64,000 nucleotides of DNA from Balamuthia mandrillaris (taxonomy: Eukaryota), in the NCBI GenBank assembly GCA_031835245.2, contig JAVKOQ020000117.1, forward strand, positions 62,001 through 126,000, given 5' to 3'. Positions 36,897-39,997 of this stretch are shown piece by piece; within the stretch, counting starts at the first letter, position 1; each line of letters begins with the position of its first letter. The notes beneath the pieces are model-generated. The model was not told the origin of the DNA. It saw nothing but the letters and a program-made list of their open reading frames with translations, and ran no database searches. A program made the position numbers and the translations under genes.

Positions 36897-39800
36897 ATGA
36901 ACGGGAAGCAACCGGGTCAGAGCGGGGGTGCTGCGGCGGACTGGTGGTTGTGCTGCCGGGTCTGCCAACAACGGCTGTGCAAGGGCGATGCTCTTGAGTT
37001 TCGGCAGGGGGGCACGCTGCTTGTCTACGACCAGCTTCGTACTTTGGGCTTGCCGTCCGACCTGCTCCTCCGAAGGTTCGTGCTTGCATTCTTGTTGTTC
37101 TCTTTAGGTCTTGTCTCTCTCTCTCTCTCTCTTTGTTCTCTCTCTGTATTCTCTCTCTATGTTCACTCTTCTATCTTGTTGTTTAGTCTGGAAGCAGAGA
37201 TGCCCTACAGCATCTCTCGCGTGTTGTGTAACATTTGCGAGAACAAAGTGGGCACCATATTTGTCCACCAAAGGGTGGTCACCAAGGAGAGCTGGTTGCC
37301 TGCTTCTTCTTCTTCCGCAACCTCAGCAACGACCGTTTTCCCAAAGGACGCTCATTTGGGGTTCACCGCCAAAGCGGTCTTTCTCTCCAACTTTAAGATG
37401 AAGGACAGAATAGAAGAGAACAAGTGGCTTCAGGCGAAGGACGAGCTGGATGATCGTGGACTAGGCCATCTCTTTCAGGCCCGAACGCGAGCCACCGAAA
37501 AGGAAAGAGGGGAGGGAAGAGAAGATGTTCCAGGAGGAGCGAAAGGAGAAGACGGATGCAACGCAAGAGGAAGCCAAGGAGAAGGAGGACAAGAAAGAGA
37601 GGGAAAAGAGAACAAAGAGCAAGAAAAAGGAGGAGGAGAAGGAGAAGAGAAGGAAGTGACCCCTGGGCAGCTGGTTCGTACCCCTCCAAGGGGTTACCAA
37701 GTGGAGCTCTATGAGGCCGCCATGAAACGGAATTCAGTGTTGGTCTTACCGACGGGCACCGGAAAGACCCTCATCTCGGCGATGGTTATTCATAGGACCT
37801 TGCAGTTAAATCCTTCCAAAAGGGTTGTCTTTATAGGTTCGTTCTGCTTTCTTTCGTCTTCTTTCCTTGCTTCTTCTCATCCTCAAACGAGCCTAGTGGA
37901 CAGAATCCCATTAGTATTCCAGCAAGGTCTGGCGCTTCACCAAGAGACAGGTCTTAGTGTGGAAGTGCGTTGCGGCGACCGAAAGAACCCGCTGTTCCAC
38001 CGCCAAGAAGGAGTGCCATTTAAACGACCACGCATATTGGTTTGCACTGCCGCGTTGTTCGCGAATCGCTTGGAACTAGAGGCAGAGCATCTCCAGGAAT
38101 ATTGTTTGATGGTATTTGATGAATGGCTAGTATCTCTTCTTTCATTGTTGCTCTGTTGCTTTCTTTATTTTCTTTAGTCTAACACTTGAAATACCAATAG
38201 CCACCATACCACAAAGAGCCACCCTTATAATCTGTTAATGCAACAATGGTATCACAAAGAGCCTGAAGCACAAAGACCGCGTGTATTAGGCTTGACGGCT
38301 TCTCCGGCTGCTCATAAAGATCTCGAGACCACCTACTATTTGTTGGAGTCTCTGTTGGCCAATTTGGACTCCACTATCTGTACCTCTGCTATTCATGCTG
38401 CCGAATTGAAAGAGGTATGCTTTTTTGTTGTTCTTTCTCCTTCGTCTTCTTCATTCTATCTATTTTTCCATTCTTCCTTCCTAACTTAAAGTCCACAAGG
38501 TCACAAGGAATATCAGTATCGGCGTCGAGGGTGTCAATCCGGTGACCTCAAAACAATACCGCATCGCCTCTTTCTTTCTCCATCACATAAACCACTGCGT
38601 AGCTTTGATGGGCTACTCACTTGACGTTCCAATGAATGCTCTCTCTCCAGTGGAGGAGTATCCTCTGATCTGCTATCTTCAACCCGTTCTTCCTCGTAGC
38701 TCCTCTCTGATGTTGCACATTAAACGAGTATGGCGAGTCTGGCTAGGAGTTCTTCAGTTTGGAGTTGAGGCTATGAGAGAGGAAATAGCATTCGTGCTCA
38801 GCGAAACAGAGAGAGAACGTGCATACGCCAACCACCGGGGTTTTGATTCGAAGAAGCTAGATATACTTTGGGATGTCAATTCTTTGTTGAATTTCGCTTT
38901 GACAACGACGCCATCGCAAGGACAAGAACAGAGGGACGTATTCGAAGGACCAAAGGTGCAAGCTGTTTTGAACGTGTTAAGCAACACTCTTCACAAAGAA
39001 GGAGATGAGGAAGACGAGCACGAATTAACGAGTAAGAGAGTCATCATCTTTGTTCGACGCAAATTTGCTGCTTTGAAACTCTTCAACTTGATCAAGTTGG
39101 CGGAGCAAAAAGGTCACGTTGCCCGCCCTCAACTTGTCTTAGGAAGTTCACCTAGTGTTGCTACAGCTGATTTTGGTGAATTGGAAGAGGAGATTGCTGA
39201 TGACGACTTTGATGGTTATTATGATGACGGATCGGATAATGAGGAGAAAGAGGAACGAGAAGATAAAGATGTAGACCCATTGGATGTGAAAGGAATGAGC
39301 TGGAAGCGCCAACAAGAGGCAGTTAAACTGTTCAAAGAAGGACAAGCCAATGTATTGATTTCAACTAGCGTCGTGGAAGAAGGTTCTCTCCTCTCCTCTC
39401 TCTCTTCTCTCCAAACTGAAACAAATATAAACGCATAAACAACAGGATTCGATGTACCTTCATGTGATATGGTCCTTATCTTTGATAGTTTGACCTCAGC
39501 AACAGCATTGGTACAATGCAGAGGCAGAGCGAGACGCATACATAGTCGCTTCATCGTCTTTTCAGAGAACAAAGCAGAAACGAAGGAGGAGATACGCACA
39601 TTGTTGCAGCAGGAACAAAACATGCATGAAGCTGTCGCCCGATTGATGAGAGAAGGAAAGAAGCCTGCTTTGCGACGACCCAGTTCTTTCCGAACATTCT
39701 CAAACAAGTTCGTCCATCATTTCTTTGAATGTGGTTTTGCTTATTTGAATGCTTACTAGAACCAACAATAGGAATTCTGTGCAAGTGTTAAATGAATGGG

Positions 39801-39997
39801 CCCAAAAAACAGGCCACACCGTTCGATGGTTGCCTGAACGCGCGTCTGGTCCTCCCCACAATCCTTGCTTCACATGCACCATGACCGTGGAATCCATCTG
39901 TCCAGGCGGAAAGTTCTCAGGAAACGGACGCACAAAAAAAGACGCACAGAAAGAAGCAGCACACGCCTTCTTTGATTACCTACAACAAAACGGTTGA
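36897..39997 (+). CDS. RIG-I/Dicer-family DExD/H helicase with N-terminal Zn beta-tent (RIG-I-CTD/Yippee-like) domain and C-terminal dsRBD, multi-exon
   Basis: Helicase motifs: PRGYQVEL, LPTGTGKT, VDRIPLVFQQ, FDECHH, PYNLLM, VLGLTASP, VIIFVRRK, GMSWKRQQEAVKLFKEG, STSVVEEGFDVPSC, VQCRGRAR. N-terminal CRVC and CNIC pairs. dsRBD: LNEWAQK..GPPHNPCF..GNGRTKKDAQKEAA. Confidence 0.88.

What the first reader, a model, noticed from the sequence alone, without database searches (positions are those of the whole stretch)
36897..39997. Domain-permuted RIG-I/Dicer-like dsRNA sensor: Zn beta-tent - helicase - dsRBD, no RNase III or CARD
Seen: a complete SF2 helicase with Dicer/RLR-type motifs (LPTGTGKT, DECHH, GLTASP, EEGFDVPSC, QCRGRAR) and an insertion between Hel1 and Hel2. 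The N-terminus has two CxxC pairs ~50 aa apart (WLCCRVCQQRLC...RVLCNICENKVG), and the C-terminus is a canonical dsRBD. Known: animal RLRs and nematode DRH proteins carry the Zn beta-tent domain C-terminal to the helicase, and Dicers carry PAZ/RNase III. Inference: this is a rearranged stand-alone dsRNA sensor, or a helicase partner for a helicase-less Dicer, plausibly antiviral in an amoeba.
Basis: partly seen in the sequence, partly recalled or inferred. Interest (0 to 1): 0.85.

Follow-up and report, generated by a model that had tools for sequence, protein, structure and literature searches.

The report
RIG-I-like end-sensor domain on amoeba helicase

Summary
The locus is a seven-exon gene for an 880-aa protein, identical to a Balamuthia mandrillaris 'Dicer-like protein 1' record. 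All six introns appear as joints in spliced contigs, and the transcript contig ends before the next gene, so no RNase III follows. Residues 17-150 model as a Zn beta-tent whose best structural matches are RIG-I/MDA5/LGP2/DRH C-terminal domains (Z 9.3-10.8; Mis18 9.1). An intact duplex-RNA ATPase and a dsRBD follow.

The interpretation changes. This is not a one-off permuted RIG-I. The beta-tent-then-helicase order is the usual N-terminus of helicase-fused eukaryotic RdRPs (44 of 45 among the top 150 hits). The helicase lies outside RLRs and Hef, unresolved among RdRP-fused helicases, Dictyostelium HelF relatives and animal zinc-finger helicases. Helicase plus dsRBD without a nuclease is the HelF design.

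Most likely it is a trans-acting dsRNA motor of RNA silencing, serving a helicase-less Dicer (0.42) or damping silencing as HelF does (0.28). An antiviral role is untested.

The wider point: an RLR-CTD-like domain occurs outside RLRs and outside animals, against a published statement. My ten literature searches did not find this reported.

The parts
36897..37075 (+). Exon 1: start codon and first CxxC (C20/C23, 36954-36965)
36945..37457 (+). Zn beta-tent domain like the RIG-I/MDA5/LGP2/DRH CTD (aa 17-150, interrupted by intron 1 at 37076-37186); second CxxC at 37227-37238; K139-W140
   Evidence: AF2 model pLDDT 73.7; structure searches; profile searches
37187..37836 (+). Exon 2: rest of the beta-tent, charged low-complexity linker (aa 151-222, 37458-37673), Q motif and motif I
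37674..38502 (+). Hel1 RecA domain (aa 223-425): motifs Q, I, Ia, Ib, II (DECH), IIa, III
37897..38125 (+). Exon 3
38126..38200 (+). GC-AG intron 3, whose removal forms the DECH motif
   Evidence: 75-base joint in an X1 contig; retained in an X4 contig
38201..38414 (+). Exon 4 (motifs IIa and III)
38500..39382 (+). Exon 5: insertion between the RecA domains (Hel2i position, about aa 426-570, 38503-38937) and first part of Hel2 with an acidic loop (aa 648-685, 39169-39282)
   Evidence: the Hel2i boundaries are inferred from motif spacing, not from a confident model
39446..39707 (+). Exon 6: end of motif V, motif VI (QCRGRAR) and a helical segment at the pincer position (aa 761-805)
   Evidence: 'pincer' is inferred from position
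39772..39997 (+). Exon 7: dsRBD (aa 809-876, 39779-39982) and stop codon
   Evidence: PF00035 E 2.9e-11
39998..40104 (+). 3' untranslated stretch covered by the spliced contig; the next gene starts near 40228
   Evidence: X1 record 3 ends at 40104; a contig end does not prove the transcript end

Best explanation
The gene encodes a nuclease-less, polymerase-less helicase of the Dicer/RIG-I ATPase family that likely works in trans in the amoeba's RNA-silencing pathway, gripping double-stranded RNA and handing it to a Dicer that would lack its own helicase. Shown: the spliced architecture, the intact ATPase motifs, the C-terminal dsRBD, and helicase kinship with HelF and RdRP-fused helicases. Predicted: an RLR-CTD-like fold for the N-terminal Zn domain. 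Inferred by analogy with RLRs and DRH proteins: the dsRBD gives first, sequence-independent contact with the duplex; Hel1, Hel2i and Hel2 clamp it; the beta-tent, on a 75-aa flexible linker, closes the ring at a duplex end; ATP turnover drives translocation or release without unwinding. With no CARD, RNase III or RdRP, any output has to come through partners. Inferred history: beta-tent plus helicase is an old eukaryotic module, fused to RdRP in many lineages and free-standing here, where HelF-type relatives carry a dsRBD or C2H2 fingers at the same N-terminal position.
For: Architecture and splicing. Two intact copies in the species, 813 of 882 aligned positions identical, Hel1 199 of 203. 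Best solved-structure sequence matches are an ancestral Dicer helicase (E 3e-47), DCL1 (3e-45) and LGP2 (2e-35), ahead of Hef and FANCM (3e-26, 6e-26). Fold: the top 50 entries among 995 Foldseek-ranked chains are all RLR/DRH CTDs, Z 9.6-10.8, 92-118 residues aligned. Among 48,161 representatives, ranks 1-7 are RLR/DRH (Z 9.3-10.5) and align to residue 150, while Mis18, MsrB, cereblon and YPEL5 (Z 7.0-9.1) stop at 129-136. Trees: (128-row clade with RdRP-helicases, HelF-like and zf-helicases, support 96). Grouping with HelF costs 0.16 log units, AU p 0.51. A 'TA' signature before motif VI is in the query, 5 of 7 HelF-like and 10 of 23 zf-helicases, but 0 of 67 RdRP fusions, 0 of 10 RLRs and 1 of 58 Dicers. 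Dictyostelium Dicers lack the helicase, which sits on RdRPs (PMC4894637, PMC2175303, passages). No RdRP was found in two Acanthamoeba species that have Dicers and Argonaute (bioRxiv 10.1101/2023.10.19.562841, passages). DRH-1 supplies ATPase to Dicer in trans (PMC11095941, abstract), and DRH-3 works with RdRPs and binds 5'ppp RNA through its CTD (PMC8464030, passages).
Against: There are no biochemical or genetic data. No whole genome was held, so Dicer, Argonaute and RdRP of this species were not inventoried. The only characterised close relative, HelF, acts the other way: its loss makes cells hypersensitive to RNAi and leaves miRNAs normal. Placement inside the wider clade is unresolved (96/55), and joining the query with Dicers (p 0.19) or RdRP fusions (p 0.15) is not rejected. 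The beta-tent lacks the His found in 26 of 35 homologous domains and in the RLR CTDs aligned, and it is neutral in charge (18 K+R, 17 D+E). The structural margin over Mis18 is only about 1.4 Z, and Foldseek interleaves cereblon and Mis18 with RLR/DRH hits. ESM Atlas leads point to other beta-tent families (FAM72, At4g08330, Yippee; scores under 0.9).
Confidence: 0.42

Rival explanations
1. A HelF-like negative regulator: the same dsRNA clamp, but it sequesters or displaces duplex RNA and so damps RNA silencing.
For: HelF is the nearest characterised helicase (AU p 0.51; highest identity in the 63-row tree is 41% to a HelF-like protein; TA signature). HelF orthologs also carry a C-terminal dsRBD (P0007, P0009, P0010, P0014, P0021; weak in HelF itself). 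helF deletion renders cells hypersensitive to RNAi (PMC2175303).
Against: The query falls outside the starred 7-row HelF clade (100/96). It has a beta-tent where HelF has its N-terminal dsRBD.
Confidence: 0.28
2. An RNAi-independent, RLR- or LGP2-like sensor of foreign RNA that blocks viral RNA or signals through an unknown adaptor.
For: RLR-CTD-like fold. R71 and K122 align with basic residues of RLR CTDs, and K139-W140 matches the KWK motif. The Hel2i region is the most divergent part between the two copies (121 of 145), which could reflect conflict.
Against: No signalling domain. The helicase is not of the RLR clade. Named relatives with a known role act in RNA silencing. Relaxed constraint explains the Hel2i divergence equally well; no dN/dS was computed.
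Confidence: 0.17
3. A left-over front half of a helicase-RdRP whose beta-tent no longer binds RNA and serves as a Yippee/Mis18/CULT-like protein-binding or structural module.
For: Same domain order as RdRP fusions; grouping with them is not rejected (p 0.15); the conserved His is lost and a Ser/Thr-rich insert is present.
Against: The query is outside the starred RdRP clade (99/97) and has the HelF-type TA signature. All Zn ligands and the KW motif are kept, and the domain is 126 of 134 identical between copies.
Confidence: 0.09
4. A FANCM/Mph1/Hef-type DNA translocase.
For: It belongs to the same SF2 branch, which also has a Hel2i insertion (PMC3590228); FANCM and Hef match at E about 1e-26.
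Against: Grouping with Hef is rejected (AU p 0.029); it has a dsRBD; it lacks the 'IR' signature found in 38 of 38 scored Hef rows. No eukaryotic FANCM was in the tree.
Confidence: 0.02

Closest known systems
Dictyostelium HelF (DDB_G0294407, Q86L44) and amoebozoan orthologs
   Same: Stand-alone Dicer-type helicase with dsRBD and no RNase III or RdRP; C-terminal dsRBD; TA signature; grouping not rejected.
   Different: HelF starts with a dsRBD, this protein with an RLR-CTD-like Zn domain; it lies outside the HelF clade proper.
Helicase-fused eukaryotic RdRPs (Dictyostelium RrpA/B/C type; hits named from Pelomyxa, Endostelium, the sponge Oopsacas and the flatworm Macrostomum)
   Same: N-terminal CxxC...CxxC beta-tent directly before a helicase of the same broad clade (44 of 45 RdRP-bearing hits).
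   Different: No RdRP domain; a dsRBD follows the helicase; longer linker (75 aa against a median of 43, range 27-67). RrpA-C themselves were not among the named hits and were not tested.
RIG-I, MDA5, LGP2 (RLRs)
   Same: The same two building blocks, a duplex-RNA ATPase and a CTD-like Zn beta-tent; like LGP2 it has no CARD.
   Different: The CTD-like domain is N-terminal; there is an extra dsRBD; the helicase is of another clade; it is non-animal.
Nematode DRH-1 and DRH-3
   Same: Stand-alone helicase with a CTD, working with Dicer or RdRP; the DRH-3 CTD is the top Foldseek hit (TM 0.53).
   Different: The DRH CTD is C-terminal and DRHs have an N-terminal regulatory domain; DRH sequences were not in my tree.
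Dicer N-terminal module (helicase-DUF283)
   Same: Best sequence matches in the PDB; a dsRBD-fold domain right after the helicase, with a weak Dicer_dimer hit (E 0.21).
   Different: No PAZ or RNase III; 0 of 58 RNase III-bearing proteins carry the beta-tent. The 'Dicer-like protein 1' label is a name from similarity only.

Membership tests
Duplex RNA-activated ATPases (Dicer/RLR/DRH helicases) | SF2 core with motifs Q, I-VI and IIa intact | tested here: met
Duplex RNA-activated ATPases (Dicer/RLR/DRH helicases) | Helical Hel2i insertion | tested here: inconclusive
   An insertion of about 145 aa is present, but the full-length model is unusable (pLDDT 37)
Duplex RNA-activated ATPases (Dicer/RLR/DRH helicases) | dsRNA-dependent ATPase activity | not testable with these tools
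   needs purified protein
RIG-I-like receptors | Zn-binding CTD fold | tested here: met
   Predicted model, Z 9.3-10.8 to RLR CTDs; below the Pfam cut-off (10.7 against 25.6 bits)
RIG-I-like receptors | CTD placed C-terminal to the helicase | tested here: not met
   The domain is aa 17-150; the C-terminus is a dsRBD
RIG-I-like receptors | Helicase in the RLR clade | tested here: not met
   Excluded by a 99/97 branch; AU p 0.048, marginal; the RLR rows were LGP2, MDA5-like and one invertebrate type, with no RIG-I proper
RIG-I-like receptors | N-terminal CARDs (absent in LGP2) | tested here: not met
   No CARD or death-fold hit
Dicer | Two RNase III domains (and PAZ) | tested here: not met
   None in the protein; stop at 39997, contig ends at 40104, a separate gene follows
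Helicase-fused eukaryotic RdRP (RrpA-C type) | RdRP catalytic domain PF05183 | tested here: not met
Helicase-fused eukaryotic RdRP (RrpA-C type) | N-terminal Zn beta-tent before the helicase (feature found here) | tested here: met
HelF family | Stand-alone helicase with dsRBD, no nuclease or polymerase | tested here: met
HelF family | N-terminal dsRBD | tested here: not met
   The N-terminus is a beta-tent
HelF family | Orthology by helicase phylogeny | tested here: inconclusive
   Outside the starred HelF clade, but a sister position is not rejected (p 0.51)
FANCM/Mph1/Hef | Helicase in the Hef/FANCM clade | tested here: not met
   AU p 0.029 against archaeal Hef; eukaryotic FANCM was not sampled
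Yippee/Mis18/CULT beta-tents | Short beta-tent without the RLR-type C-terminal extension | tested here: inconclusive
   Same fold, Z 7.0-9.1, but they align only to aa 129-136; Pfam favours Yippee-Mis18 for this sequence (E 0.004)

The most novel reading that the evidence does not exclude
The RIG-I C-terminal RNA-end sensor is not an animal invention. It descends from an old eukaryotic module in which the Zn beta-tent sits in front of a duplex-RNA helicase, still present on helicase-RdRPs of amoebae, other protists, sponges and flatworms and free-standing in Balamuthia; animal RLRs arose by moving that domain behind the helicase. This protein would then be a working non-animal RLR/DRH equivalent that caps 5'-triphosphate duplex ends from the N-terminal side, and Dictyostelium RdRPs would offer a direct genetic test of what the domain did before innate immunity.
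Probability: 0.3. Interest if true: 0.85.

Novelty: new variant of a known kind. Interest (0 to 1): 0.62.

Why it matters
A study of RLR origins states that the RNA-recognition domain has no detectable similarity outside RLRs and that RLRs are absent from non-animals (PMC3879448, passages). Here a domain with that predicted fold sits in an amoeba helicase and at the front of nearly all helicase-fused RdRPs retrieved, where the papers I read annotate only helicase and RdRP domains. If homology and RNA-end binding hold, the origin of the RLR sensor domain becomes testable in Dictyostelium and in vitro, and a function is suggested for an unannotated RdRP domain. It also names a candidate for the helicase missing from amoebozoan Dicers and shows that the 'Dicer-like protein 1' label is misleading. 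As a single gene it is a variant of the known HelF/DRH theme.

Tried and rejected
Whole-genome check for Dicer, Argonaute and RdRP: no genome held.

Full-length fold without an alignment: pLDDT 37, not used. Alignment A2 misplaced the short query onto helicase motifs and was discarded.

Search with the N-terminal region alone found only the species' own cluster among 1,428 candidates. No relative in viral contigs (13 stretches checked) or metagenome contigs (314 stretches); the domain alignment was too variable for that tool. Viral structure library: no match at E <= 0.001. These blanks are weak.

Sequencing runs: no holder was on record as RNA. Raw RNA runs gave only 31, 30 and 4 reads from 3-5% of each run, too few for an expression level or transcript ends. 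Earlier scan findings: none.

Seven shorter beta-tent-helicase hits without RdRP (P0044, P0049, P0060, P0062, P0087, P0190, P0192) nest among RdRP fusions and show no dsRBD; I treat them as probable fragments. P0106 (373 aa) passes the RIG-I_C-RD cut-off but is a fragment.

Rows left out: 10 of 278 proteins lacked one helicase half and 2 isoforms were dropped, leaving 266; 63 of these were hand-picked for the careful tree and AU tests. The tree groups were named after seeing the FastTree result, which weakens the AU p values.

Papers with nothing relevant in the passages seen: PMC13650160, PMC6396948 (0 occurrences of helicase, zinc or RIG-I). PMC6723221 repeats the animal-only view. The original HelF paper (PMC1360742) was not held and is known only through citing papers. 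No supplements or figures were seen; the RdRP domain figure of the Amoebozoa preprint and the supplement of PMC3879448 could bear on novelty. No complex prediction was run.
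Full report
Gene model. The region holds a + strand gene with exons 36897-37075, 37187-37836, 37897-38125, 38201-38414, 38500-39382, 39446-39707 and 39772-39997, giving 880 aa. Contigs of run X1 skip exactly these six introns, including the GC-AG intron 3 that forms the DECH motif. Raw RNA reads support introns 1, 4 and 5 with 2, 4 and 1 reads. Contigs of run X4 cross introns 2-5 unspliced. The spliced contigs run from 36895 to 40104, and a separate spliced gene starts near 40228, so downstream RNase III exons are very unlikely. 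The model equals P0005, an NCBI record named 'Dicer-like protein 1 [Balamuthia mandrillaris]'; a second full-length copy, P0001, is identical at 813 of 882 aligned positions. Neighbours are an F-box/SPRY gene upstream and tubulin cofactor D downstream; nothing nearby suggests a silencing cluster.

Anatomy. Pfam gives DEAD/ResIII, Helicase_C and dsrm, with no RNase III, PAZ, CARD or RdRP. Motifs Q, I, Ia, Ib, II, III, IV, IVa, V and VI are present, and the stretch after motif II matches the IIa region of Dicers (IIa as described in PMC3590228, passages). The best solved-structure sequence matches are an ancestral Dicer helicase (E 3e-47), DCL1 (3e-45) and LGP2 (2e-35); Hef and FANCM score near 1e-26. 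A full-length model without an alignment failed, so the Hel2i and pincer assignments rest on position.

The N-terminal domain. Alone it gives sub-threshold Pfam hits to Yippee-Mis18 (E 0.004) and RIG-I_C-RD (E 0.62), and atlas leads under 0.9 to other beta-tent families. With 35 homologous domains as alignment, AlphaFold gave a beta-rich model of pLDDT 73.7. Foldseek ranked the DRH-3 CTD first (TM 0.53), with cereblon and Mis18 interleaved at mostly higher rmsd. VIA-align on 995 of those chains listed 50 entries, all RLR or DRH, Z 9.6-10.8, covering RIG-I residues 802-916. Against 48,161 representatives, ranks 1-7 were RLR/DRH (Z 9.3-10.5, aligned to residue 150); Mis18 (9.1, 8.8), MsrB (8.6), cereblon (7.0-7.8) and YPEL5 (7.7) stopped at residues 129-136. 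The extra segment holds K139-W140, matching the KWK motif of RLR/DRH CTDs (PMC8464030). The family profile's best PDB sequence hit is the MDA5 CTD (E 1.2e-5), then Mis18 (7.6e-4) and the DRH-3 CTD (8.7e-4). Member by member at E <= 1, 28 of 36 hit Yippee-Mis18 (best 2e-5) and 23 of 36 hit RIG-I_C-RD (best 3.4e-7). So the beta-tent fold is well supported and the RLR-CTD subtype is favoured by a modest margin. R71 and K122 align with basic residues of RLR CTDs; equating them with RIG-I K861 and K888 uses numbering I recall, of which only K858-K861 was seen in a paper. A His found in 26 of 35 homologues is missing.

The order is not unique. A search of 1.84 billion representatives gave 8,027 hits, of which the best 150 were examined. 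Of these, 45 carry an RdRP domain, and 44 of the 45 carry the same Zn domain in front of the helicase; 12 of 13 that were not seeds of the profile also do, against 0 of 42 RNase III-bearing hits. Named examples come from Pelomyxa, Endostelium, Oopsacas and Macrostomum; most are unnamed. A profile from 73 RdRP N-termini, with no Balamuthia or RLR rows, scores the query domain 15.6 bits (best of 446 scored shuffles 6.2) and picks up the CTDs of 9 of 10 RLR rows, six of them at 13-16 bits. Helicase-fused RdRPs are known from Dictyostelium, whose Dicers lack the helicase (PMC4894637, PMC2175303, PMC3661229, passages). The passages I saw name only helicase, RdRP and nucleotidyltransferase domains.

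Stand-alone relatives. The same search returned dsRBD-helicase(-dsRBD) proteins from Cavostelium, Phalansterium, Polysphondylium, Heterostelium and Dictyostelium, among them HelF itself (Q86L44), and animal helicases with C2H2 zf-met/jaz fingers. By the stricter profiles only the two Balamuthia copies, of 278 proteins, combine beta-tent, helicase and dsRBD without RdRP. One unnamed protein, P0104, has a partial beta-tent (9.9 bits, best of 451 scored shuffles 5.0), a helicase and a weak dsRBD (E 0.018), and may be a second case; P0116 shows only a possible tail of the domain.

Phylogeny. In a 266-row FastTree the query lies in a 128-row clade (support 96) of RdRP-fused, HelF-like and zinc-finger helicases, apart from Dicers, RLRs and Hef. 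In the 63-row IQ-TREE analysis it lies within a 99/97 clade that excludes RLRs and Hef; Dicer (100/100), RdRP fusions (99/97) and HelF (100/96) are each closed clades without it, and its own position is unresolved in a 96/55 group. AU tests: with RLR p 0.048, Hef 0.029, Dicer 0.19, RdRP fusions 0.15, HelF 0.51. RIG-I proper, nematode DRHs and eukaryotic FANCM were not in the set. A two-residue signature before motif VI links it to HelF-like (5 of 7) and zinc-finger helicases (10 of 23), not to RdRP fusions (0 of 67), RLRs (0 of 10) or Dicers (1 of 58).

Mechanism. Proteins of this family clamp duplex RNA and hydrolyse ATP without unwinding, and the RIG-I CTD caps the duplex end (PMC3590228). 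With an RLR-CTD-like domain on a 75-aa linker and a dsRBD, this protein would likely bind duplex stems and ends, and it has no catalytic or signalling output of its own. The nearest functional analogues act in silencing: DRH-1 provides ATPase for Dicer (PMC11095941, abstract), DRH-3 works with RdRPs, and HelF suppresses RNAi. Acanthamoeba, a close relative by my recall of the taxonomy, has Dicers and Argonaute but no detected RdRP, and its best Dicer candidate is only 805 aa (PMC13315211, table passage), which I infer leaves no room for a helicase. A free beta-tent-helicase would then supply in trans what Dictyostelium carries on its RdRPs. I give this 0.42, a HelF-like suppressor 0.28, an RNAi-independent sensor 0.17, a non-RNA-binding remnant 0.09 and a DNA translocase 0.02. 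None of the functional steps was tested, and the species' silencing genes could not be listed.

Novelty. The protein is neither an RLR nor a Dicer nor an RdRP by defining features. It is a new domain combination within the HelF/RdRP-helicase lineage that works, by inference, like a DRH or HelF. PMC3879448 states that the RLR RNA-recognition domain has no similarity outside RLRs and that RLRs are animal-specific (repeated in PMC6723221). Ten answered full-text searches listed no title or abstract describing this protein or an RLR-CTD-like domain on RdRPs. The library lacks most subscription papers, I read passages of 11 papers and the abstract of one, and automated structure-domain databases that I could not query may already mark the domain. 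The direction of the permutation is not established. Interest 0.62.

Noticed in passing
window 38126-38200: A GC-AG intron splits the DECH motif; it is confirmed by a spliced contig.
   Followed up: yes
window 38503-38937 (aa 426-570): The Hel2i region is the most divergent part between the two species copies (121 of 145 identical, against 199 of 203 in Hel1). Selection or relaxed constraint; not tested.
   Followed up: partly
window 39169-39282 (aa 648-685): A long acidic loop inside Hel2 and a charged low-complexity linker at aa 151-222; a role as RNA mimic or regulatory loop is only a guess.
   Followed up: no
proteins P0008, P0011, P0017, P0194 and others (24 rows): Animal stand-alone helicases with arrays of C2H2 zf-met/jaz fingers (hemichordates, a snail), one annotated 'RIG-I-like', group with HelF and RdRP-fused helicases and not with RLRs.
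   Followed up: partly
proteins P0026, P0031, P0038, P0088, P0191: Many helicase-RdRPs carry a nucleotidyltransferase (MTPAP-like) domain after the RdRP; one adds a metallophosphoesterase and one a second helicase.
   Followed up: no
protein P0258: A helicase of this search set preceded by a Z-alpha domain and C2H2 fingers.
   Followed up: no
proteins P0003, P0004: Annotated splice variants of the second copy end inside motif V and would lack motif VI and the dsBRD-bearing C-terminus.
   Followed up: no
window 31519-33745, minus strand: A 662-aa open frame without a Pfam hit overlaps a protein-kinase frame (Pkinase E 1e-15) in a different reading frame: an intron, a frameshift or two genes.
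   Followed up: no
window 34438-36101: F-box plus SPRY gene directly upstream, partly covered by RNA reads and contigs.
   Followed up: partly
window 40228-40749: Small spliced gene with an acidic DDDWE motif and no Pfam hit in the two frames tested; it recalls the N-terminal acidic region of cortactin/HS1 (from memory, untested).
   Followed up: no
window 41274-47226: Tubulin-folding cofactor D gene (ARM_TBCD and TFCD_C hits) with a long simple-repeat stretch near 41640-42110.
   Followed up: no
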